Part shown: positions 20,253-35,512 of the stretch, piece by piece
How positions within the stretch are numbered: position 1 is the stretch's first letter
How the letters are laid out: every line of letters starts with the position of its first letter
Source: a virus
Taxonomy: Duplodnaviria > Caudoviricetes
Strand: one strand, 5' to 3'
Virus record (IMG/VR): IMGVR_UViG_3300027969_000172
Span: 1 to 42,881 of that record
DNA: 42,881 bases
Position numbers and translations under genes: made by a program
The notes under the pieces: generated by a model
The model's input: only the letters and a program-made list of their open reading frames with translations
Told to the model about the DNA's origin: nothing
The model's database searches: none

Positions 20253-20271
20253 ACTTGCCTCCTGTGTTAAT

Positions 20272-20301
20272 AATATAACTCATGAATAAATCACAAGTCA
20301 A
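20272..20301 (-). promoter_or_regulatory. Promoter of leftward replication operon
   Basis: TTGACT-18bp-TATATT; spacer contains ATTCATG half-site. Confidence 0.6.
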
Positions 20302-20314
20302 CTGTTATGTTACC

Positions 20315-20826
20315 AACTAAAAGCCCTCTTACCCGTTGACCCTCCCTCCCCCCCCAGAGGGTAGGTGTAGGACAGTCAACGACTCTTTATCAAGGAGCTT
20401 TGCCCAGTTAGTGAGCTACCGGCCAGCCAAGCCGCCCTCCCCTGAGATCCCGATAAGGTCAGTTTTCACCGGCCCCAACGATCAACTCCCAGCGTACTAG
20501 GGTATTTGTCTTTCGACATCCTTGTTTATTCCGTTCGATTACTCTACTTGGAGGTGCGGGTCACACCGAGGTTCTGTGTTCTTTGAGTTCAGCCCATACA
20601 GGCCATTAGCTAACGCGCTCTGACGGCTGCGTTGCGGGTGAGACTGGGACTGCTCACATGAAGCAGTGTTTTCAAAACATTTCGTCCTCTCAGGGGCAAC
20701 GGCGCTAACCCGTTACACAATCCCAGTCTCAAAAACAAAAAAGCCACTTACAACTGCCCCGTTGCGGTTCCCCTAGACGGGGCGAGGCAGATGTAAATGG
20801 CTTTCAAGGTTGACCGCAACGACAAC
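20315..20826 (-). ncRNA. Candidate ~510-nt structured non-coding transcript (attenuator, multi-branch domain, G-rich hairpin)
   Basis: Own promoter, no convincing ORF, several long complementary stems (see findings). Confidence 0.55.
20732..20821 (-). terminator. Terminator/antiterminator (attenuator) leader
   Basis: Long stem 20783-20804 / 20740-20761 followed by U-tract; 5' CGUUGCGGU (20813-20821) is complementary to ACCGCAACG (20760-20768). Confidence 0.65.
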
Positions 20827-20832
20827 AGCTCG

Positions 20833-20861
20833 TTTATATCAAAGATATTTGCGTTGTGCAA
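20833..20861 (-). promoter_or_regulatory. Sigma70-type promoter driving the non-coding region
   Basis: TTGCAC-17bp-TATAAA with TGn extension. Confidence 0.65.
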
Positions 20862-20884
20862 TACCCTATGAAAAAAAAGTTTCC

Positions 20885-20905
20885 CATATTAACACTGTTA
20901 ATATG
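20885..20905. promoter_or_regulatory. Palindrome TTAACA-N-TGTTAA, longest copy
   Basis: CATATTAACACTGTTAATATG, 21 bp with perfect 10-bp arms. Confidence 0.75.
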
Positions 20906-20979
20906 AAAAAAGCCCCCGAGTGGTTAGTTCGGGGGCAAAGCAAACCCAACAAAGGAGAGTGGCAACTGCAAGTTACCGG
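20906..20979 (-). ncRNA. Candidate ~75-nt sRNA with anti-Shine-Dalgarno seed; its 3' hairpin is also the ruvC terminator
   Basis: Promoter TTGCAG-16bp-TAGAAT (20985-21012); hairpin GGUAACU-UGC-AGUUGCC; linker ACUCUCCUUUGUUGGG; terminator GCCCCCGA..UCGGGGGC-U6. Confidence 0.55.
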
Positions 20980-20992
20980 AATTTATTCTACA

Positions 20993-21454
20993 TCAATCTC
21001 CGTGAACTGCAATAAGAGCTGCATCAGCATACGCTTGGCCGGCACCCTTTTTATCCAACTCCCTCCAGAAGGGCCACATCTGTATGGCCAATGTCCTTGA
21101 CGCATCTTTGTCCTGACCAGTAAGACCCGCGCGCTTCTTCCATTGACTGGGTGTCACCATCGTCACAGGTATCTCAAACGCACCAAGCACACCTTGGATC
21201 ACGCCAGCTGAGTGACCGAAGGAGAACATCGAAGCCACGCCTTGGCCGGGCATACTGCCCACCAGCTCAACATACGCATGGAGCTTTTTATTCAATAGCC
21301 AGTACGGCCTGATCTTGGCAGCCAAAGCAGAAGCATTCACCCGATTGGCCGAGCCCGTCTTCATTGTTGGCATCCGGTGCCACTCAATAGGAGAGTTTGG
21401 TTCCAAAAAAACTATTGCACCAGACAGGCCGGGGTCTATTCCAATTTTGATCAT
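20993..21454 (-). CDS. ruvC: RuvC-like Holliday junction resolvase
   Basis: IGIDPGLSGA, YVE.V..MPGQGVASMFSFG, P.QWKK, ADAALIA. Confidence 0.88.
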   Translation of the reverse strand: MIKIGIDPGLSGAIVFLEPNSPIEWHRMPTMKTGSANRVNASALAAKIRPYWLLNKKLHAYVELVGSMPGQGVASMFSFGHSAGVIQGVLGAFEIPVTMVTPSQWKKRAGLTGQDKDASRTLAIQMWPFWRELDKKGAGQAYADAALIAVHGD

Positions 21455-21532: not shown

Positions 21533-21865
21533 ATGACAAGGCGAGAGTTTTCTTTTCAGTTTGAAGACACCACGATTTGCTTCGTGCAGCTGTACCACGA
21601 CTGTTGGATTTGCAGTTTGCCCAACCTTCCAGCCGAAAGACTTAGGAAGAGACTTTTAGGTTCCGACCTTTCTGTTGACGAGCTTGACCTCTCACTAAGG
21701 TTAAGAAATTTTCTAAAGTCAGAAAACCTGACAACCATTTATGACGTAATCCAACGAACCGAAAACGAAATATTGAAGTGCCCAAATATTGGACGAGGCT
21801 CACTCAAGGATTTGAAGGCCGCCTTGGCCGCATTCGGATTTGAACTTAGGAAGTTACGCATATGA
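21533..21865 (+). CDS. Stand-alone RNA polymerase alpha C-terminal-domain homologue
   Basis: VDELDLSLRLRNFLKSENLTTIYDVIQRTENEILKCPNIGRGSLKDLKAAL aligns by eye with RpoA CTD [58 protein letters not shown] RBS. Confidence 0.85.
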   Translation: MTRREFSFQFEDTTICFVQLYHDCWICSLPNLPAERLRKRLLGSDLSVDELDLSLRLRNFLKSENLTTIYDVIQRTENEILKCPNIGRGSLKDLKAALAAFGFELRKLRI

Positions 21866-22755
21866 TTATCACAAACAAATACAACTTACCTCAAACCTTC
21901 GTGAACATCATGAAGCGGCCTACCTACTCCAAGGGTAAGGCAAACATCTCAGCCACCGAGCTGTTGAACTCTCCGCGCATCGTCCAGCTGCGTAAACTGC
22001 ACGAAGACAAGATCGAGACTGACGTTACAGAGATGGTCTGGTCTATCTTTGGGACGGCCATCCATGGCGTTCTTGAGCATGGTGCAGATGAGAACCACAT
22101 GATTGAAGAGCGCTTACACGCAAAGCTTGATGGCTGGTCTATCTCTGGTGCCATTGACTTGCAGATTGTCAATGAGGACGGGACTGTAACGATCAACGAT
22201 TACAAGACTACGGGCGCTTGGTCTGTGATGAACGAGAAGATTGACTGGGAATATCAGCTCAACATCTACGCATGGTTAGTTGAGAAAGTTAAGGGTGATA
22301 CGGTTTCCAAGCTAGAGATCGTAGCTATCATCAGAGACTGGTCACGCCGTGATGCCGCTATGAAGGCAGGCTATCCTGACGCGCCAATTAAGGTGATCCC
22401 GATCCGCCTGTGGCCAATGGAAGAGCGCGAAGCCTTTATCCAACAGCGAATCAAAGAACACTCCAACGCACTATTTGATTTGGAGACAGGAGATGAGCTG
22501 CCATTTTGTACGCCCGACCAGATGTGGGAGAAGCCTACAACATACGCAGTAAAAAAGATTGGTAATGTCAAAGCAAGAAACGTTTGCAATACCGATGAGG
22601 AAGCTCAAGCCAAGGTGGCCGAGTATGGAAAGGATTACGAAATCATAGTCAGACAGGGAGAGAGAACGCGCTGCGCTGAGTTCTGCTCTGTCAGTAGGTT
22701 TTGTAATCAGTACAAAGAGTATTTAACAACAAAGGAAAACAATGTCAGTTCATAA
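21862..22755 (+). CDS. PD-(D/E)xK exonuclease (RecB/Cas4-like)
   Basis: SATEL, GTAIH..LE, ISGAID...INDYKTT, QLNIY, C-terminal RC..FC.V..FC.Q. Confidence 0.85.
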   Translation: MIITNKYNLPQTFVNIMKRPTYSKGKANISATELLNSPRIVQLRKLHEDKIETDVTEMVWSIFGTAIHGVLEHGADENHMIEERLHAKLDGWSISGAIDLQIVNEDGTVTINDYKTTGAWSVMNEKIDWEYQLNIYAWLVEKVKGDTVSKLEIVAIIRDWSRRDAAMKAGYPDAPIKVIPIRLWPMEEREAFIQQRIKEHSNALFDLETGDELPFCTPDQMWEKPTTYAVKKIGNVKARNVCNTDEEAQAKVAEYGKDYEIIVRQGERTRCAEFCSVSRFCNQYKEYLTTKENNVSS

Positions 22756-25202: not shown

Positions 25203-25422
25203 TGGAACAGTGGTAGCCGCCCACAGTAACCAGCTGCGGGATGGAAAAGGCCGGGGCCTGAAGGCGCATGACTACCGAATTGCATCCTTATGTTATCGGT
25301 GCCACATGGAGCTGGATCAGGGGGCTAAGATGGATAAGGCCCAGCGTGTTGAAATGTGGGAGGATGCACATCGCAAGACGCTGGGCCTGTTCTTTGAGCA
25401 GGGTATTATTGGCCCCGTCTAA
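25120..25422 (+). CDS. DUF1364/YbcO-like His-Cys putative nuclease
   Basis: LL.AAR..PCQ.CG....TVVAAHSN...GKG.G.KAHD...A.LCY.CH..LD; start may be 25135. Confidence 0.8.
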   Translation: MTVNQMYRNEKLLKAARLLPCQHCGVSDGTVVAAHSNQLRDGKGRGLKAHDYRIASLCYRCHMELDQGAKMDKAQRVEMWEDAHRKTLGLFFEQGIIGPV

Positions 25423-28400
25423 CCTGATTGTTGAAGTCAGTCATCTTCTTCAAGATTTCATCTTCCTTGCGCTTAACAGCCTCCCTTGGGGCATCCTTCT
25501 CAATCAGCGCTCTCTTTTCTTTATTCAGCTTGACGATCTGATTCTCAACATTGTTAGCCCGCTGCCACAACCTGGCCTCTGGGTTAGCCTTAACGTACTC
25601 AGTTGGGCTAACCTTGTCTTTACGCAGGCCCTTGATCTCATGCTCATGCTTGGCCATCTCTTTCACGTTCTCATAGAACCTTGATCGAGTAGCAGCTGGT
25701 GACTCAGCTTCTCCGTAGAAGCGGCCAACTATCGGCAGCTTGTAGGCCGGCACCTCTTCTTGAGTGACCGCCTTAGACTTAGCAAACTCTCCAACCTTCA
25801 TGATCTCCCGGCCAACACCGCCAGTGACTTGACCGATGAAGTAATCAATCTGATCGGCGGTAGGACTGAAGAATCCCTTGGTATGCTGGGTGCCAGCTGG
25901 AGAGGTTGCCCAGTTGATTGCCTCTGCAAGCTTCTTACTGAAGAGGCTGGAGTTCTCACGCGAACGCTCGTATCCGGGCGTAGGTGCGTTGCCCTTGTCT
26001 TCCCTGTAGATTGGCCGACCAAAGGCATCACGGTTACTGTAAATGGCTGCAAACGGATCGAGGATCGTAGGCATAGCCATTAACAAAGGATTACCAGCTC
26101 CACCCAATGGGTTGAACGCATCAAACACCAAAGACACCGCGCTCATAACCTTATCGCCCGGGCCTTTGCGGCTTCTGATCATGCCGGTTTCAATTAACAA
26201 TGTTTCCATGGCAAGGCGGCCAATACCGGGGAACATATTAAAGCCCAGTGGCATTGGAATAGACAAATACTTCTTGTCCGAGAATGGAATTGGAATGATG
26301 AAGTTCTTGTCTTTGACAAACTCTGGTGGCTCATCATCGTCAAACCCAGCCATGGCCAAGACAATAGCCTGCATAGATCCAAGGAACATACCGCCAAAGA
26401 TAATCTTCTTACCCATAGGCCCGCGCAGTGTTTCCACCATGCGCGCACTACCCTGAATGGCAGCGTTAAAGAACGCATACAGGGAGGAGATAAGACCAGT
26501 CCTAGCACCCTTGCGGTTGAAGTTAACAGTCAGATTCTTAGCAATGCTGGCTGCCTTGTCTTCGCTTAGACCACTCTCCACGGCTACCTTAAATGCAGAC
26601 AAACGCACGGCATTCTCAATGGCATCGTTGTAGTCTGACAGCCAGTCAAATACCGCATCAACAGACTTCTTGACGTTGCCACGGTTAAGGCGCTTCAGTT
26701 CTTGCTCAACAACATTACCCTTGCGAGCTGTCTCTGCAAATTGATTCTGGTAACCAGTCTGACCGCCGGCCAGTTGGAAACGCTCAAACCAATCTTGCAT
26801 TTCAGCCATAGCTTCGGTAGTCGCACCCTTACCGCGCAGATCACGATAGATCGCGCGCAAGGCTGGCAGCACGTTGGCCCGCACTTGCTTTTCCTTGCCA
26901 GCAATCTCTGTCGTTGACAAGTTAAGAGAAGCAGCGCCAAGGTCACGTAAGAAGTTAACACCACCAAACACGATGTTGTACTGGGTATTAACAGACGCAA
27001 ACCAGCGAGTGACCATACCGACTGTGCCAATTACATCGCCCAGTCTTTCGGTATCAAGGTTCTTAATTGACTCAACCATACGCAATGCACGGGGGTCATT
27101 GGGGTTGAAGAAGATAAAGCGGTCTTCGCCGTTAATACGGACAGGAAAGACGTTGGGGCTGTTACGCAGCAGGGGGTTAACCTGATACTTAACCTGACCA
27201 GTCTTCTTATCAAACATCGGCTGGCGCGGCTCTTGGATGATGTTCTGAGCATCTTCAGGCTTGAGGCCCAGAGAGATCAGCTCGGCTTCCAACTTATCTT
27301 TGTCTTTGATGGCGTCAGGATTGATAGCCAACCAGAAGCCAGGATTTGGATGCTTGATGGCCATGCCATACAAAGCGCGGCCAACACGGGCCTGCTCAGA
27401 CCTACGCAAGGCGCGCTCACGCTGCATAGCAATATTGGCAAAGATGTCAATGACTGGCTTGTCAGAACCAACACGGCGCTTAGATGCAGAACCACGGGTA
27501 GCAAAGCCACCCATGACGCCACGGCCAGTGTGTACAAAGTCAAGGTTATCGCGCTGCAGCGGAACGTAGTTCTTGTATGTCTTATTCCACTCGTCAATTG
27601 TGTCCTGAGTCTCAAGGCCGTTGGCCACCAAGACGCGCTGAGTCTCTTTGACAATCTTGTCAACCTTGGCTGCAAGAGCCGTGAGATCTTTGCGTTTTTC
27701 TGGCGTCAACTCCGCCATGTATTTATCGGCAGCTTCATCTGAAACGCTGGAGCCAGCCTCTGGGAAGCCAGTCGGATTGATCTTAGCAATGTATGCGTTG
27801 GCTTCTTTAGCGTGGCGGTTGAGCAAGAACGTTTCAAGCTCATCCAGCGTCACGTTTTTCTCTTGCATTTCCTCAAGCACCGGGCGCATCTCGTCATTAA
27901 GAAAATCGCCAGTACGCTTGGCCAGACGGCCATGGTAGTTCTCTTCCTTCATGTAGGCGTCAAACTGCTCATTAAGCTTTTTGCCGGTGCTATTGATTGA
28001 TTGAATCAAACGCTTGGTGTCGATGAGTTTGTCGCCATACTTGTAGATCACATCGTCCATGAACGACATCTCTGGGATTTCCATGTCCGGCTGGGGCGCT
28101 TCACCACCTTGGTAGTTGCGCCGCTCAATGCTTTGGTAGTCGCCTACACCTAGCATCTCATCGGTAACAAAATTACCATCAGACTTAGCCAGACTATCCA
28201 ATGCGCGGATGATGGAGACGTCAGACTTCAAGCCAAACAATGATTTGATCGTTTGACCCAGCTCACGCAACCAGTTCTTAAGCTTGGAAAGTGTTCCACC
28301 TTTGACGGCCTCAAAGCGACCTTCAACAATGCGTGAACCGTTAACAGCCCAGAACTCTGATGGGTTAAAGAACTGGTACATATCCAAGGGCACGGCGCCC

Positions 28401-31400
28401 TGCAACAAAAGCATTTCTGCAAGCTTTACGCTGGTATTCCCGCGAGCCATGTCTTCCAAGGCCATGCGCGCATTAGAGTACGCCACGCCGGCACCCTCTG
28501 GGACGTTCACCATGGCGTGTTTATTGTCGCCAAAATTTGCATCCAACACGGCTTCAAAGTAAAGCTTCTGGACTGGGTCTTTAGTAGCTTTGGCCGCCTT
28601 TGTCAGCTGAGTCAACCAAGCTTTACGAATGGCTTGCTGAATCTTAAGCGGCATCATGCGCTCAAGATGGTGCAAAATTTCGTGTACGGTTGTAAGGTCT
28701 GAGCCACCATTCTTGAATAACGTGATGATGCGTGAGAGGTTGTTATAGAACCCGCCCGCACCTTCTCTTTTGTTGGCTTTAATGCTGATACCAAGGTCAT
28801 CGACCAAAGCCTCGTTCTGCTGCATAAACCAATTAGCCAAGTCGTATGCTTCCCGCGTCAACTCACCTCTACGAACAGCTGCCGACAGTTTTTCTTGGAT
28901 GTGCAAGTACCCGCGCTGGCGTGGTTTTGCGGGATTAAGCAAGTCATTTTCATAGTCTTCACGGATGGCCGCATCGGTCATTAGGACGTACATCTCGTCA
29001 GACATTTTGCCGGCCTTGCGCTGGCGGTTGTACGTTTTAAGCTTACGAATCAAAGACGGGGAACGCTTCTTCTCATCTTCCGCCATGTCACCGGCCATCT
29101 GATCAGTAAGCTTGACCAAATCATCACCAAGACTCTTGTTAATGTTGCCAGACTCATCAAACGTACCACGGTTACCAGTGGCTGACTTGATTTGCTCTGG
29201 CTCTAAAGCAATCCATACATCCTGATCTTTAAACTCAGCGCTCTTGGGGTCAGCCTTAATATGGATGCCATCTTTGCCAGCTTCTTTTAAGAACTTACGC
29301 AGGGCTTCAACTTCTTTTGCGCCAATCTTACGGCCATCGTCCACGCCGTTTTCCATCATGCGGGCGCGTCTTAACATTGTTCCAAATGTTGTGGTGTATG
29401 GGTTCTTGATAGACAAGTACACGGGATAGACCGCAGCGCCTTCACCAGTGCCAGAGTACATCTGGGCACCACCTTCGCCGGGGTTGGTGCTGAAGAAGCT
29501 GCCAACAGTATCAATAGATGGCTTACGGAACTGAGTGGTAAACATCCGGTCAAACGCCATGATGTCCCCCATACCCTTCACACCTTCGGTATCTGGACGA
29601 ACGATGGTGCCGTGGTAGACAACCAATGGATTGCCGTCAGCATCTACAACCTTGCTGTCGCCAAAGAACTTCTTAAACGCTGGCGTCCCAGTCTGCTTCT
29701 CAAGACTGAAGAATCGTTCTTCCCTGCCAGCTTGTTTACGCTCGGCAACCGTCTTAGGAGCAGGCACCTGTTGCTCTGTGACGGTGGTCTTGGTCTTAGC
29801 CGGAAACATAGCCGCAGTGGCAGCTTGATTGTCTGGTAGCACAAAGATCATGCCGCCGTTGAGCGCGTCAATGTTTGGCAGAATAGACTTTAGGAATGTT
29901 TCATGTGCTGTATTGATGCAGCCGTAGCTAATACGCTTATCCTCTGCCCCGGGCGTAGCCAAACGCTCAAGCCGTTTTTCTTGTGGGTTTCCAAGGTATG
30001 CGGCATGAACAGCAATTATTCCGTTGCCGGCAGTCTCTGACAAAGCCAATGTCACGCCGCCCGCATATTCAGCATCAGGCATAGCCGCCAACGTAAACTT
30101 TCCCGCTGGAGTTATCTTGGGCCCGCCTACTAAAGACGAAACATCGCTTTCAACGTCACCAATGTCTTTACCGTACAGGGCGGTGTCTTGAACCAGCATT
30201 GACCCGTCAGCAAAGAAAACGTGCATCATGCCGTTTGGCTTGTCTGCAATGATGAATCCTTTGCCAGAAGCCTTGGCTGTGGGCGCCATTGACTCGTAAA
30301 CCGACTGCGCCAACGTAGACATCTTGGCTTTTGCGTTTGCAGGGACTTCAGCTTTGACTTGCGTAGTAACAGTAGTTTTGTAAGTTTTTGGTAGGTTAAA
30401 TTCAAAGTTGTTGGTCAGCGCCATTGGGTTAAGAACAACCGCAGCAGACATTACGCCAGCAGCTATTTGCCGGATGATTGCGCGAATCCTTCCGTTAACC
30501 GCCTTGGCGCCCTCGTTAATGAACGCAATGACATCTTTACGCAGGCTATCTAAAAACTCGGTGCTATTGCGCTTGGCGCCGTACTGGCTTTCTAGGGATT
30601 TAGTCTGGTCTTCGCTTAACTTGGAGGTTTGATCAGTCAGAATCTTTTGCTGCCTCTCCTCGCCAATCTCAGTAAATTCACCTTCCATGGTGTAGGGCTC
30701 AAAGCCAACCTGGCCGGCAATCTGTGGCTCTTTGGCGGGCAGCACTTCAGTTTCAGGCTGCCTGACAATAACCCTCTCACTTACGCCGCTGTCTGTCTCT
30801 TGGAACTTGAAGTCAAACTTCTTGTAAAGATTAACCAGCTGGTCAAAGTCAAGGCCAACATCTTTTTGCTTGAGGTTAACGATGGGCACGGGCTCGCCAT
30901 ACAGGGTTATTCCGTACTGGTCAGCAACCTTGGTAAGGTCTTTAAGAACCTGAGTGCCTTTGCCTTTGCCGCGATCCTTGGGATCAACAGCAAGCATTTC
31001 AAGGGTTAGCTCATTAGGGTTACCCATGCCGTACTGAACACGGCCCTTCCACTCAAACAATACTTGGTTAGGGCTAACAGCTATGCGCGCGCCATCCTTC
31101 TCAAATGTGCGGTGTTGTTTGCCGCCCTTGTCTGTGTAGGTGCGTGGATCATTTAGGGCCAACACTGTGTAGCCTGTATTAACAAGGCCATACGCAGCTG
31201 GGTAACTCAGGGTGTTGCCTTCAGGGGTTTCCACTTCAAAAGACGGCTCTTCGGCTGGCTCTTCAACCGCCTGCTCTTGCGCCCGTTCCTCAAGTAATTC
31301 GTCAACACGCTCATCAATAGCGTTGTCTCTGGCGTCATCTAGCAGGCCGCTTAGAGTATCCAGAACTTCGCTTGCATCTTGCTCTCTATCGCTAAGACCT

Positions 31401-34400
31401 TCTCGGACATCTTCTACATCATCAAGGACGCCATCACGCTCTAGCTTTTTAATGAAGCTTCGGATCTGAGCCTTGGTTTCAATGTCGCCGTTTTCAATCT
31501 TAGCAATAGCCTGACCAATTGGGCCTTCATCAATTTCAGCTTCTGCCTTGTTTCGTATGGCTTCTTCTGCCGCCTCTTCCGCCGCTTCGGTTTCAGCCTC
31601 TGTTGGCGCGGCTTCTGCAGCAGCTCTTGCAGCCCTACCTTCGGCTGCAGTCAACTCGCCTTGCAGCTTGGATATTTCTGAAACAAGAGACTTACGTTTT
31701 TCTTTGTTGAGCTCTAAATCAAGCTGGTCTTCCAAGTCTTGGAGCTCGTCTTGAATCTCTTCAACGCTTCTTTGTTTTACTACTGGCTTTTCTACCTGCT
31801 GAATTGCAGGCTTGCCTTCAAGCTCACGCAGGCGCTTGTCGATCTCAGCCATGCGAGCTTCTTGCTCTGGCGTTTCTTCTAGGCCAGCCTTGATGATCTG
31901 GAGCATCAAAGTCTTCTGCTCTTTTTTCAGGTCAGCAATCTCTTGCTTGTTGTCCTTGGGCTTCTCAACTACGGCAACGTTCTTTGGCATATTTTCAAGG
32001 ACAGCAATTGCCCCATCAATATCGCCTTTTTTGTAAAGGGCACCAATTGCTTTGCGTACTTCAGAATTTGTTGTATCAAGGTAGGCAAATGCTTCTGCCC
32101 CAATTTCTGGAAACTCTTCACCCAATTCAACCGGGTTAAAAGTATTATCTTCAGCAAAGATGTCCTTCTGGCCACGGGCTGCAGCAACATCAGCCGCACG
32201 GTCACTGCCGGTCAGGGTGAACTCAGCAGCCTGTTCATCTGCCTTGGCCTTGGCTTCTGCCTGCTTGGCTAGGCGCTCGTTCTCCTTGCTTAGACGATCA
32301 ATCTCGTCTTGCTTAGACTTCAGCTCATCTTTTGTGGGGGCTGTGAGCTCAAACGCTTCTCTTTCACTTGTTTCAGCAGCGCGATCCTTGTTGCTGGGCT
32401 CAGTGATCTCAGCTTTTTGATCAGCTTCTCTTTGTTCATCTGCTGCAATTTGGAGTTCACGATTCTGTTCCTCAATGGTTAAGTATTCTTTAACAAGATC
32501 TTCCGCATCCTTGACGGAATCAAAAATCATTTCAATTTCTGTTTTGGCGTCAAATGGCACATAGTCTTGACTGCCAACCGCATCTTTAATTAACTGAGCT
32601 GATTCAGCTGCATCAAAGTTATTTGCGTCATGGCGTTTGTCTGGTGGCAAGAATGCGTCCAATGCCCCATCATCAACCAAGTCAACAATGTAGGCGCCAT
32701 TGCCATTACCCTGAGTGATTTGTAACCTACGCTGACCAAGATTTGGTTTCTTACCAAAAATCTCGCGAACCTCTTCTGGGTTTAATGAGCCAGTAAGGGC
32801 GCTCCACAAGCTTCCAGGCTTGGCGCGCATTTTATTAACAGTCTTAACGGACTGATCAACCCTTGCTTTTGCTTCAATAAATTCTTTAGGTTGCGTGGCT
32901 TTACCGCCCATGACGCCAAACGATTCATCGGGCTCAAGCTCAGTAGGCTCTTCTTGGCGAGCCGATTTCTTGCGCTTATCCAAGCCTTCTAGTGTCTGGC
33001 TCTCTGGTGAGAATGTCACATACTCTTTGTACTTAGTGCCGCTCTTTAAAGCATCTCCCATGCGAGTAAGCGCGTCATAGCCGGCTTCGTTATAAATGGC
33101 TCCCAATACATCCGTGTAACCTTGAGGCAAAGCATCAGAAAGCTTGCGCGGCTCAAATCCACCGCGATTTAAATTGGAGTGAATCTTTTGAAGATCTTCC
33201 GTAACCGCCTCATTGGTTGCTTCATCGTAATAAGGAACACCATACGCCTGCAATTCTTCGGCAGTTGTTGGAATTGCGCGCTTCAGATTAACAACATCTT
33301 CTTTGGTTAATTTGTCCAAATCAAGAACACGGCTGGCTTTAAGCTCACCCTGCAACACAGTGCCGTTTGTATTGCGCGAAGCAAACTCTTTGGCCGCCTG
33401 CTCGGACTCTGTTGTGTAGTAGCCAGCACCAAGATTGCCATCATCAGCGCTTTTAAACTCTTCCCCAACTTTGTGGCCACGGAATACTTTTGTCGCCTCT
33501 GTTTTGGCTGGCGGTATTGTTTCAACTGGCTTCTCTGTCACAGGGGCTGGTTTGGGAGCGGTCTTAGGTTTATTAGCCTCAATAAACTTATCAACAACTT
33601 GATCAACCTGATCCATGCTCATGGACTTAGGAGCCGGCATTGGTTCACCGCGCTTCATAGCCTCAAGAATTCCAACACTCTGAGAACTCTTGTACTGCTC
33701 TTCAGCTTGCTTGACAGTGTCCATCAAACGCTGACCCAGAGGTGTCGTGCTTCCACCCTTGATCAGACCGTTCTCTGTCATCCAAGTGAGTGTTTCCTTT
33801 GGCAGTTTGCCCGCATTGCCTTGCCAACCATCAATGATGGCGTTGTAGATCTCAGGCGTACTTGGGCGAGCTTTTGCCTCTGGTTCTTTAGGCATAACCT
33901 CTTCAACCAGTTTTGTGCTGGCTGGTTGCTCTAAAGGCGCTTCAACGGCAGCAGCTTGAACAACAGGCGCCTCCGCTGGCCTCTCAACCTTAACTTCAGG
34001 CTCTTTTTCTTGGGGGTAATTAACACTGTTAATTAACTCTTGCAACATGGCCTGCGTATCGCGGGACTCAGATTCAGGAGCCTGTATGGTTTCCGCTGGG
34101 CCAGCAGGAGGTGCGGGCGGCATAGGAGCTTGAGCAGCCGGTGCAGCTGGAGGTGCGGGCGGCCTACCTTCTGGCGTCAGGAATCCCCTTTGACGGGCCA
34201 TGAGTTCAGCCAAGCCGCCTTCTGGCTGGACATACTTCTCACGCTCTGGAGCTTTGGCTTCACCTTCACTCAGAGCGCCCTTTACCGTACCGGGGCCAGC
34301 ACCACCAAGGAAGCCAAGAATAAAGTTACCCGCAGAATCTTCGCCCAACTCTTTGCTTGGAATGACGTTCTTTAGGGTTACATCAGAAGCCAAGCCTTCG

Positions 34401-35512
34401 CCGGTTTCTTGAACAGCTTCTTCTAAGCCGGATGCAGTGCCAACACCAGCTGTACGAGCAAGGCGGTTTGTGCCAAGCTTGGCGATTGCTTTATCAAATG
34501 CACCAGTGACCAGCTTACCAGTCAGGACGTCACCAAATGTAGCAACCAGGCCCTGAAGTGCAGCGCCTGATTCAGCGGCCTTCTTAACGGTCAACTCGCG
34601 CGCTTCTTTAGGTGAAGCTCCAGCTGCAATTAACTGTGCATAGATTGGGCTCTTCTGACGCAACTCTGCATCAGGAATCTTGTTTATGTACTCTGCAGCC
34701 TTGGTGGCCGCTTCATCAGCCGCCATGGTGCCGCCAACAAAACCACCAGCGCCCGGGCTCTTGGTGACCATGGCCGTAGCAATGACTGGCGCCATAGAAC
34801 CAAACACATTAGCCGCCTGCAAAGCATAGCCATAAGCATTTGGGTTTGTACCAAAGTCAACTTCACCTTCAAAGATGTTGCCGGTGATCTGTGACTCTTG
34901 AAGAGCTTTCTTGGCCTCTGGAGACAGGCTACCAAGAATGTCCTTTTGAACATTCTCGCCAATCTTGTTAAGAGCTTTTGCGCCCGGAATAGATGGGATT
35001 GAAGCAATAGTGCGTTGAACCTCAAGCTGCTTTTTAAGTCTATCTTCTTCCGTCTTAGGCCCAAACAGTTTATCCCTCTGCTGCATTAGCAAGGGTGATA
35101 AAAGTCTTACTAAACCCGGCTGGACTGCAGACGTCATTGAAGACTCTGGCTGCTCTAGCGCTTGACGAACAACTCCTTTGGCAGCTGTTTCTGTGGCCAG
35201 CGGTAATGCAAATGGAGCCTTGGCGCCGGGAGCTATGAACTGCTTGGCAAAGTCGGCCACAGTGGTAAACGCACCGGGCTCATTCATTCTGCCTTGGCCT
35301 TCAACCGTGTAATCCAGAGGCGCAGGAACGTCACCAATCACTTGGCCAAGAGGGTCGTAGGTTGGAGCTTCCCTTGGCTCCTCCCTTGGAGCCTTCTTAA
35401 CTATAGATGGCAAGCCTTCTTGATCGGTATCCTTCTGAGAAACTAACGTATACCCTTCTGGGAGTTTAGTTTTCTGTGGCTCAACAAGAACATACCCAGC
35501 TGGTAACGCCAT
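25406..35512 (-). CDS. Giant polyvalent protein, probably internal virion / ejected (ART-like x2, GNAT, L,D-transpeptidase, zincin, LPD38-like)
   Basis: 3368 aa, last gene of tail/ejection operon, GGAG RBS; domain motifs detailed in findings. Confidence 0.85.
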   Translation of the reverse strand: MALPAGYVLVEPQKTKLPEGYTLVSQKDTDQEGLPSIVKKAPREEPREAPTYDPLGQVIGDVPAPLDYTVEGQGRMNEPGAFTTVADFAKQFIAPGAKAPFALPLATETAAKGVVRQALEQPESSMTSAVQPGLVRLLSPLLMQQRDKLFGPKTEEDRLKKQLEVQRTIASIPSIPGAKALNKIGENVQKDILGSLSPEAKKALQESQITGNIFEGEVDFGTNPNAYGYALQAANVFGSMAPVIATAMVTKSPGAGGFVGGTMAADEAATKAAEYINKIPDAELRQKSPIYAQLIAAGASPKEARELTVKKAAESGAALQGLVATFGDVLTGKLVTGAFDKAIAKLGTNRLARTAGVGTASGLEEAVQETGEGLASDVTLKNVIPSKELGEDSAGNFILGFLGGAGPGTVKGALSEGEAKAPEREKYVQPEGGLAELMARQRGFLTPEGRPPAPPAAPAAQAPMPPAPPAGPAETIQAPESESRDTQAMLQELINSVNYPQEKEPEVKVERPAEAPVVQAAAVEAPLEQPASTKLVEEVMPKEPEAKARPSTPEIYNAIIDGWQGNAGKLPKETLTWMTENGLIKGGSTTPLGQRLMDTVKQAEEQYKSSQSVGILEAMKRGEPMPAPKSMSMDQVDQVVDKFIEANKPKTAPKPAPVTEKPVETIPPAKTEATKVFRGHKVGEEFKSADDGNLGAGYYTTESEQAAKEFASRNTNGTVLQGELKASRVLDLDKLTKEDVVNLKRAIPTTAEELQAYGVPYYDEATNEAVTEDLQKIHSNLNRGGFEPRKLSDALPQGYTDVLGAIYNEAGYDALTRMGDALKSGTKYKEYVTFSPESQTLEGLDKRKKSARQEEPTELEPDESFGVMGGKATQPKEFIEAKARVDQSVKTVNKMRAKPGSLWSALTGSLNPEEVREIFGKKPNLGQRRLQITQGNGNGAYIVDLVDDGALDAFLPPDKRHDANNFDAAESAQLIKDAVGSQDYVPFDAKTEIEMIFDSVKDAEDLVKEYLTIEEQNRELQIAADEQREADQKAEITEPSNKDRAAETSEREAFELTAPTKDELKSKQDEIDRLSKENERLAKQAEAKAKADEQAAEFTLTGSDRAADVAAARGQKDIFAEDNTFNPVELGEEFPEIGAEAFAYLDTTNSEVRKAIGALYKKGDIDGAIAVLENMPKNVAVVEKPKDNKQEIADLKKEQKTLMLQIIKAGLEETPEQEARMAEIDKRLRELEGKPAIQQVEKPVVKQRSVEEIQDELQDLEDQLDLELNKEKRKSLVSEISKLQGELTAAEGRAARAAAEAAPTEAETEAAEEAAEEAIRNKAEAEIDEGPIGQAIAKIENGDIETKAQIRSFIKKLERDGVLDDVEDVREGLSDREQDASEVLDTLSGLLDDARDNAIDERVDELLEERAQEQAVEEPAEEPSFEVETPEGNTLSYPAAYGLVNTGYTVLALNDPRTYTDKGGKQHRTFEKDGARIAVSPNQVLFEWKGRVQYGMGNPNELTLEMLAVDPKDRGKGKGTQVLKDLTKVADQYGITLYGEPVPIVNLKQKDVGLDFDQLVNLYKKFDFKFQETDSGVSERVIVRQPETEVLPAKEPQIAGQVGFEPYTMEGEFTEIGEERQQKILTDQTSKLSEDQTKSLESQYGAKRNSTEFLDSLRKDVIAFINEGAKAVNGRIRAIIRQIAAGVMSAAVVLNPMALTNNFEFNLPKTYKTTVTTQVKAEVPANAKAKMSTLAQSVYESMAPTAKASGKGFIIADKPNGMMHVFFADGSMLVQDTALYGKDIGDVESDVSSLVGGPKITPAGKFTLAAMPDAEYAGGVTLALSETAGNGIIAVHAAYLGNPQEKRLERLATPGAEDKRISYGCINTAHETFLKSILPNIDALNGGMIFVLPDNQAATAAMFPAKTKTTVTEQQVPAPKTVAERKQAGREERFFSLEKQTGTPAFKKFFGDSKVVDADGNPLVVYHGTIVRPDTEGVKGMGDIMAFDRMFTTQFRKPSIDTVGSFFSTNPGEGGAQMYSGTGEGAAVYPVYLSIKNPYTTTFGTMLRRARMMENGVDDGRKIGAKEVEALRKFLKEAGKDGIHIKADPKSAEFKDQDVWIALEPEQIKSATGNRGTFDESGNINKSLGDDLVKLTDQMAGDMAEDEKKRSPSLIRKLKTYNRQRKAGKMSDEMYVLMTDAAIREDYENDLLNPAKPRQRGYLHIQEKLSAAVRRGELTREAYDLANWFMQQNEALVDDLGISIKANKREGAGGFYNNLSRIITLFKNGGSDLTTVHEILHHLERMMPLKIQQAIRKAWLTQLTKAAKATKDPVQKLYFEAVLDANFGDNKHAMVNVPEGAGVAYSNARMALEDMARGNTSVKLAEMLLLQGAVPLDMYQFFNPSEFWAVNGSRIVEGRFEAVKGGTLSKLKNWLRELGQTIKSLFGLKSDVSIIRALDSLAKSDGNFVTDEMLGVGDYQSIERRNYQGGEAPQPDMEIPEMSFMDDVIYKYGDKLIDTKRLIQSINSTGKKLNEQFDAYMKEENYHGRLAKRTGDFLNDEMRPVLEEMQEKNVTLDELETFLLNRHAKEANAYIAKINPTGFPEAGSSVSDEAADKYMAELTPEKRKDLTALAAKVDKIVKETQRVLVANGLETQDTIDEWNKTYKNYVPLQRDNLDFVHTGRGVMGGFATRGSASKRRVGSDKPVIDIFANIAMQRERALRRSEQARVGRALYGMAIKHPNPGFWLAINPDAIKDKDKLEAELISLGLKPEDAQNIIQEPRQPMFDKKTGQVKYQVNPLLRNSPNVFPVRINGEDRFIFFNPNDPRALRMVESIKNLDTERLGDVIGTVGMVTRWFASVNTQYNIVFGGVNFLRDLGAASLNLSTTEIAGKEKQVRANVLPALRAIYRDLRGKGATTEAMAEMQDWFERFQLAGGQTGYQNQFAETARKGNVVEQELKRLNRGNVKKSVDAVFDWLSDYNDAIENAVRLSAFKVAVESGLSEDKAASIAKNLTVNFNRKGARTGLISSLYAFFNAAIQGSARMVETLRGPMGKKIIFGGMFLGSMQAIVLAMAGFDDDEPPEFVKDKNFIIPIPFSDKKYLSIPMPLGFNMFPGIGRLAMETLLIETGMIRSRKGPGDKVMSAVSLVFDAFNPLGGAGNPLLMAMPTILDPFAAIYSNRDAFGRPIYREDKGNAPTPGYERSRENSSLFSKKLAEAINWATSPAGTQHTKGFFSPTADQIDYFIGQVTGGVGREIMKVGEFAKSKAVTQEEVPAYKLPIVGRFYGEAESPAATRSRFYENVKEMAKHEHEIKGLRKDKVSPTEYVKANPEARLWQRANNVENQIVKLNKEKRALIEKDAPREAVKRKEDEILKKMTDFNNQVRRGQ
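34017..34035. promoter_or_regulatory. Intragenic palindrome TTAACA-N-TGTTAA
   Basis: TAATTAACACTGTTAATTA, AT-rich island inside the giant gene. Confidence 0.6.

What the first reader, a model, noticed from the sequence alone, without database searches (positions are those of the whole stretch)
20906..21012. Small RNA with an exposed anti-Shine-Dalgarno seed matching the phage's own RBSs
Seen: promoter-like TTGCAG-16-TAGAAT overlapping the ruvC 3' end, then hairpin, single-stranded ACUCUCCUUUGUUGGG, then terminator. The linker is complementary to CAAAGGAGA at the alpha-CTD gene RBS (~21520), CAACAAAGGA at the ERF gene RBS (22727-22736) and AAAGGAGA/AAGGAGA of the KEKN array. Inference: a trans-acting translational silencer that shuts off middle genes or host mRNAs.
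Basis: partly seen in the sequence, partly recalled or inferred. Interest (0 to 1): 0.75.

Follow-up and report, generated by a model that had tools for sequence, protein, structure and literature searches.

The report
Phage mimic of host small RNA
This phage carries a likely 75-base RNA gene whose 10-base core is identical to the core of a likely small RNA of Comamonadaceae bacteria, and it is predicted to block translation of the histone-like DNA-packing protein of such a (presumed) host; many unrelated phages carry the same core.

Summary
The element is real (minus strand: -10 box, hairpin, CU-rich linker, terminator), but its universal part is the 10-mer GCAGUUGCCA, not the anti-SD linker. 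Seed plus terminator occurs in about 410 viral stretches (control 4), in 15-19 flank groups and phages with unrelated terminases. The same seed sits in the loop of a ~65-nt sRNA-like element upstream of lepA in 51 of 61 Comamonadaceae genomes (no Rfam match); one temperate phage carries a near-complete host-type copy. The complementary site covers the start codon of the histone H1-like gene (SD-plus-site pattern in 185 of 201 family genomes, near background elsewhere in the order) and lies in some ftsZ and ompA leaders. The window RNA adds an anti-SD block, ranks the H1-like start 2nd-3rd of 1,880 host starts, and binds it about 7 kcal/mol better than the host RNA. Best reading: a captured host sRNA seed, retuned to silence host nucleoid-protein mRNA. 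Unshown: expression, pairing, and the phage's host. Pairing to the phage's own alpha-CTD RBS is as strong here but weaker in relatives. No earlier scan note on this element was found.

The parts
21007..21012 (-). -35-like hexamer TTGCAG (3/6 consensus, inside ruvC coding sequence)
   Evidence: variable in relatives, spacer shortened in L280/L283
20985..20990 (-). -10 box TAGAAT
   Evidence: present in 21 of 21 element-bearing ruvC relatives, absent in the 7 without the element
20906..20981 (-). predicted ~75-nt small RNA (start inferred about 20979-20981)
   Evidence: 1-4 nt indels in relatives argue against coding
20960..20969 (-). seed GCAGUUGCCA, identical to the host lepA-leader RNA seed; complement of (A)UG GCA ACU GC
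   Evidence: vs 45, 84, 90
20961..20977 (-). 5' hairpin that masks the 3' half of the seed; its 5' arm varies while pairing is mostly kept
20948..20959 (-). single-stranded anti-SD block CUCUCCUUUGUU, predicted toehold on the H1-like SD
   Evidence: invariant CTCCTTTGTT in 14 of 14; junction to the seed takes 0-3 nt in 41 distinct copies
20906..20936 (-). intrinsic terminator, 8-bp GC stem plus U6
20993..21454 (-). ruvC-like resolvase gene directly upstream
   Evidence: phrog_1770, E 8.8e-36

Best explanation
The locus likely encodes a ~75-nt base-pairing RNA that carries the same 10-base seed as a likely small RNA of Comamonadaceae bacteria, and it is predicted to block translation of the presumed host's histone H1-like nucleoid protein by covering its ribosome-binding site and first codons. 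Shown: the anatomy, the conservation, the identical seed, the conserved complementary sites. Inferred: the RNA is made from the TAGAAT promoter during infection; its free CUCUCCUU block binds the SD (AAGGAGA), the hairpin opens, UUGCAGUUGCCA pairs with UGGCAACUGCAA across the AUG while the SD-AUG spacer loops out, and flanking CCGG and GUUGGGUU add short helices; Hfq probably assists. The SWIB-domain MATAKK gene and, by seed only, ftsZ and ompA leaders would be secondary targets. The seed was likely captured from the host lepA-leader RNA and re-scaffolded; lineages that put CTCC 5' of the seed fit the ftsZ leader instead. The likely benefit is less nucleoid protein coating phage DNA.
For: Seed plus terminator: about 410 viral stretches against 4 for the reversed seed; 19 upstream and 15 downstream flank groups among 120 loci; two complete carriers lack a match to the window's terminase and four match at 36-39% over part of it. 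Host RNA: seed in a hairpin loop between a TACAAT box and a terminator in 26 of 30 family lepA loci, and in 2 of 30 order-wide loci, both family members; single copy in 51 of 61 family genomes (about half of these built the model). L708, a 40-kb integrase-bearing virus record without lepA nearby, scores 44.8 bits on the host model. Target: GGAG-N3-10-TGGCAACTGC in 185 of 201 family genomes (control about 51), 41 of 151 order-wide (control 34); 22 of 30 loci are H1-like, 6 SWIB. GCA and ACT are used at codons 2 and 3 by only 35 of 138 and 30 of 131 eligible G550 genes. All 51 RNA-positive genomes have the site; 5 of 10 RNA-negative ones lack it. Window RNA ranks the H1-like start 3rd or 2nd of 1,880; median -21.3 over 24 H1-like starts against -14.4 for the host RNA; 0 of 60 seed shuffles reach it. 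Indels fall at the seed/anti-SD junction. Of 37 synteny-picked copies in a second lineage 34 are exact and 3 change only to G:U-compatible bases. Hfq in 5 of 5 family genomes.
Against: No transcript evidence for either RNA. The host of this phage is inferred only from the seed: no phage-type copy in 301 family genomes, none in two cultured Comamonadaceae phages, and the phage alpha-CTD does not single out the family. The window RNA scores only 12.6 bits (E 0.25) on the host model, so descent is not shown for this copy. Without an accessibility term about 16 G550 starts score better than H1-like. Across 13 phage variants the H1-like rank runs from 1 to 207. The host RNA itself ranks H1-like only 36th and ftsZ 12th. 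The exact site is in only 9 of 30 ftsZ leaders picked by protein (3 more G:U-compatible). The own alpha-CTD RBS ties with H1-like in this genome. One variant (L111, GCAT) breaks pairing. Only 2.0 of 3.2 Mb of one genome was ranked, with a crude ORF caller that missed the H1-like gene, which was added by hand. Genomes and phages are related, so counts are not independent.
Confidence: 0.62

Rival explanations
1. One reading: the anti-SD linker silences the phage's own middle genes (alpha-CTD, ERF, small-gene array).
For: alpha-CTD RBS -20.1 kcal/mol, equal to rank 4 of 1,880; AAAGGAGA at 3 of 46 phage starts against 9 of 1,880 host starts; CTCCTTTGTT invariant in this lineage.
Against: Does not explain the seed, which most carriers keep without a 3' anti-SD block (17 of 95 have one); own-gene pairing weaker than H1-like in 7 of 7 relatives; ERF weak. 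It could be a side activity.
Confidence: 0.12
2. GCAGTTGCC/GGCAACTGC is a protein-binding site (DNA operator or RNA motif) used by host and phages, and the complementarity is a by-product of orientation.
For: The invariant unit is only 9-10 nt; it lies near promoters or starts of lepA, ftsZ, ompA and the H1-like gene; no pairing was observed directly.
Against: It is always sense in promoter-seed-terminator units and antisense at translation starts; variants on both sides are G:U-compatible; CTCC flanks follow the two target geometries: 3' CTCC copies prefer H1-like in 16 of 17, 5' CTCC occurs in 30 of 78 against 0 of 95 in a control window and prefers ftsZ in 26 of 30.
Confidence: 0.12
3. Decoy: the phage RNA, or the opposite-strand transcript, titrates the host sRNA, Hfq or a host sponge and so de-represses the regulon instead of repressing it.
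For: The plus strand reads AAGGAGAGUGGCAACUGC, a perfect partner for the host seed; in the second lineage a convergent gene reads towards it.
Against: Promoter and U-run point to the minus strand; C-to-U and A-to-G variants keep pairing for a mimic but break it for a plus-strand sponge; the added anti-SD strengthens mRNA pairing.
Confidence: 0.1

Closest known systems
HnrS of EHEC prophages (PMC13502914; abstract and Discussion read)
   Same: Short phage-encoded sRNA that pairs with the RBS of a host nucleoid-associated silencer gene (hha) to block translation.
   Different: Different sequence, host and target (Hha versus H1-like/HC2); HnrS is prophage-borne; the parts read describe no chromosomal host RNA with the same seed.
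DicF of the E. coli Qin prophage (PMC5069750; abstract read)
   Same: Phage-derived sRNA repressing ftsZ, a predicted target here.
   Different: No Rfam match to it at E up to 10 (that Rfam holds DicF is recalled); ftsZ looks secondary for the window's copy.
Betaproteobacteria toxic / double-hairpin sRNAs, RF02278 (PMC5688073, PMC4603805; passages read)
   Same: Two hairpins, unpaired CU-rich anti-RBS stretch, U-tailed terminator.
   Different: 20.4 bits against a cut-off of 50; the RF02278 consensus lacks the GCAGUUGCCA seed; the window RNA lacks the 5' UGUCUCC.
Comamonadaceae lepA-leader RNA (found here; G550 L428:6396-6462)
   Same: Identical seed; -10 box, seed hairpin, terminator; both have UUGUUGG 3' of the seed.
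   Different: Host seed is in an open loop with no anti-SD block; different terminator; whole-model score of the window copy is only 12.6 bits.

Membership tests
RF02278 toxic sRNA | Rfam score of at least 50 bits | tested here: not met
   20.4 bits, E 0.25; no gathering hit in the window or 36 related loci
RF02278 toxic sRNA | Double hairpin with unpaired CU-rich anti-RBS stretch | tested here: met
   one CU-rich stretch, not two
RF02278 toxic sRNA | Growth inhibition on expression | not testable with these tools
   needs a bench test
Comamonadaceae lepA-leader RNA | Seed GCAGUUGCCA between a -10 box and a terminator | tested here: met
Comamonadaceae lepA-leader RNA | Full-length match to the host covariance model | tested here: not met
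   window 12.6 bits; best close relative 31.2; L708 44.8; host copies 52.7-91.6
Comamonadaceae lepA-leader RNA | Position upstream of lepA | tested here: not met
   follows ruvC in the window
Phage-encoded base-pairing sRNAs (HnrS/DicF kind) | Conserved non-coding unit with terminator in a phage genome | tested here: met
Phage-encoded base-pairing sRNAs (HnrS/DicF kind) | Conserved complementarity to a host translation start | tested here: met
   the host itself is presumed
Phage-encoded base-pairing sRNAs (HnrS/DicF kind) | Discrete transcript | tested here: inconclusive
   only assembled contigs available
Phage-encoded base-pairing sRNAs (HnrS/DicF kind) | Repression by pairing; Hfq dependence | not testable with these tools
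   Hfq gene present in 5 of 5 family genomes
attP core | Identical core in a host chromosome and an integrase in the phage | tested here: not met
   37 scattered 17-mer hits, none with terminator; no integrase among 50 proteins scanned

The most novel reading that the evidence does not exclude
Many unrelated phages of Comamonadaceae have captured the seed of one family-wide host sRNA and rebuilt it on different scaffolds as an auxiliary regulatory RNA, steering it with an anti-SD block placed 3' (nucleoid H1-like and SWIB genes) or 5' (ftsZ) to take over a host regulon that links nucleoid, division and outer membrane; the host RNA and its regulon are themselves uncatalogued.
Probability: 0.5. 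Interest if true: 0.9.

Novelty: new variant of a known kind. Interest (0 to 1): 0.8.

Why it matters
It would be the RNA counterpart of auxiliary metabolic genes: a host regulator's seed reused by hundreds of phages and retuned to one target. It exposes a conserved Comamonadaceae sRNA with named candidate targets (H1-like, SWIB-domain, ftsZ, ompA), gives a handle on what the Burkholderiales H1-like protein does in infection, and offers a 10-base host-prediction tag for uncultured phages. Each step can be tested with simple reporters.

Tried and rejected
attP core or identical chromosomal copy: 37 unrelated 17-mer hits, none with terminator. First search for a host copy missed it because the pattern needed GGG before the U-run (4 of 151, control 4). 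Expression: 15 RNA runs hold small shares, all as contigs; 4 were laid and show relatives' pieces only, which cannot show ends, strand or level; the other 11 were not seen. Plain duplex energy is dominated by long GC-rich duplexes. Host assignment tries that gave nothing: alpha-CTD homologs, terminase neighbours (HTVC023P-like pelagiphages, 53-55%), blastn of the locus and of three other lineages against cultured phages, tRNA-His of one lineage, prophage copies, host DNA beside 64 metagenome loci. The plus-strand 96-aa ORF 20810-21100 has no PHROG hit and the indels in relatives argue against it. Literature: ten searches showed no description of this RNA or the lepA-leader RNA; most subscription papers and supplements are not covered. 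A recalled cyanophage Yfr2 precedent was not confirmed. Twelve of 13 host-type viral hits lack a terminator and were set aside as chance.

Full report
Setting. The window is a whole 42.9-kb virus record with capsid, portal, terminase, primase, helicase, RuvC, ERF and a polyvalent protein, and no integrase among 50 proteins scanned. Its closest cultured terminases are HTVC023P-like.

Observation. Rfam has no match at gathering level; the best weak one is RF02278 at 20.4 of 50 bits. Among 28 ruvC relatives fetched by protein alone, 21 carry TAGAAT, GCAGTTGCC, CTCCTTTGTT and a terminator, and 7 have none of these.

What is conserved. An exact 18-mer occurs in 62 viral contigs after at least three different genes. 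With a looser pattern, the four bases GCAG outside the pattern are 89-96% conserved over 92 distinct flanks while hairpin arm and linker vary. GCAGTTGCCA plus terminator occurs in about 410 stretches against 4 for the reversed seed; the 120 shown give 98 distinct scaffolds, many with the seed in a loop, in 15-19 flank groups, and include complete phages with unrelated terminases. The seed is the 10-mer; the anti-SD block is lineage-specific.

The target side. The reverse complement reads SD plus (A)TG GCA ACT GC. A 401-genome class sample gave 14 hits against 2, three of them MATAKK genes from two genomes. In that family the pattern is in 185 of 201 genomes (control about 51, my count); order-wide it is near background, 41 against 34 of 151. 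Of 30 loci, 22 are the H1-like gene (PF07382; NCBIfam hist_H1_lk_Burk above cut-off; after nrdB), 6 SWIB-domain genes, 2 others. The 16S of G550 is closest to Variovorax (96.7%) and Comamonas (94.1%), so the family is taken as Comamonadaceae. In 2.0 Mb of G550 the window RNA ranks the H1-like start 2nd-3rd of 1,880 by cofolding; the gene was added by hand. A consensus over 13 phage variants put ftsZ first and H1-like third. GGCAACTGC lies just upstream of an SD in 89 of 151 family genomes; 16 of 30 loci are ftsZ and one is ompA, with a like leader listed in 11 genomes. Picked by protein, 9 of 30 ftsZ leaders have the exact site and 3 a G:U-compatible one.

The host RNA. G550 has the seed in the degP-lepA gap, between TACAAT and a terminator. 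It is in 26 of 30 family lepA loci and only in family members order-wide, single-copy in 51 of 61 genomes, and has no Rfam family. Five of 10 genomes without it also lack the H1-like site, none of 51 with it (p 4e-5, not independent, incomplete genomes). L708, an integrase-bearing virus record, has the host 5' hairpin almost letter for letter on a phage-type terminator (44.8 bits), which fits capture. The window copy shares little beyond seed, UUGUUGG and terminator (12.6 bits), so convergence is not excluded for it.

Mechanism (inferred). In this lineage the seed is half masked and the anti-SD is free. Predicted duplexes use four blocks: CCGGU, a 12-bp seed helix over the AUG, a 7-bp SD helix, and GUUGGGUU on the conserved upstream AACUUGAUC. 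The junction between seed and anti-SD varies by 0-3 nt in 41 distinct copies, where the SD-AUG spacer must loop out. The window RNA binds 24 H1-like starts at median -21.3 kcal/mol against -14.4 for the host RNA, and 26 ftsZ leaders about equally (-13.7, -14.1); both panels were chosen for having the site. Copies with CTCC 3' of the seed prefer H1-like (16 of 17); copies with CTCC 5' prefer ftsZ (26 of 30).

Against. Neither RNA is shown to be made. The host is presumed from the seed alone. The own alpha-CTD RBS ties with H1-like here though not in 7 relatives. Ranks vary among variants, and the host RNA ranks its proposed targets 12th and 36th. That the H1-like protein hinders phages is an inference from HnrS-type counter-silencing; it was not tested.

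Known systems. It works like HnrS (PMC13502914, abstract and Discussion) and DicF (PMC5069750, abstract) and resembles the Burkholderia double-hairpin RNAs (PMC5688073, PMC4603805, passages), but is a member of none by the tests run. Ten paper searches found no description; supplements and most subscription papers were not seen.

Verdict. A real, conserved phage sRNA candidate; most likely a retuned mimic of an uncatalogued Comamonadaceae sRNA aimed at host nucleoid-protein mRNA (0.62). New variant of a known kind; interest 0.8.

Noticed in passing
window 8312, 8357, 12803, 18325, 20890, 34021, 41049: Palindrome TAACANTGTTA in 7 perfect copies (14 with up to 1 mismatch; 1.05 expected); one sits right after the terminator and stays palindromic in relatives. 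Possible phage operator.
   Followed up: partly
window 20260-20880: About 600 bp without a long ORF, with a long hairpin at about 20735-20810; relatives' pieces of 20730-20803 reach the highest depth in one RNA library. Possibly a second structured RNA or leader.
   Followed up: no
L428:6396-6462 (G550) and 26 lepA loci: Family-wide ~65-nt host RNA candidate in the degP-lepA gap, not in Rfam; may also act as a lepA attenuator.
   Followed up: yes
window 21533-21865: Stand-alone RNA polymerase alpha-CTD domain gene (PF03118) with 31 short homologs; replaced by other small genes in some relatives.
   Followed up: partly
L308, L314, L337, L364, L371, L375, L388: These seed carriers have a tRNA-His gene within 300 bp of the element.
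   Followed up: partly
L596 (G550:C13:131240): A gene start that looks like mraY (name from recall) also has GGCAACTGC before its SD; conservation not checked.
   Followed up: no
window 25406-35512: 3,368-aa polyvalent protein with ART-PolyVal and LPD38 domains.
   Followed up: no
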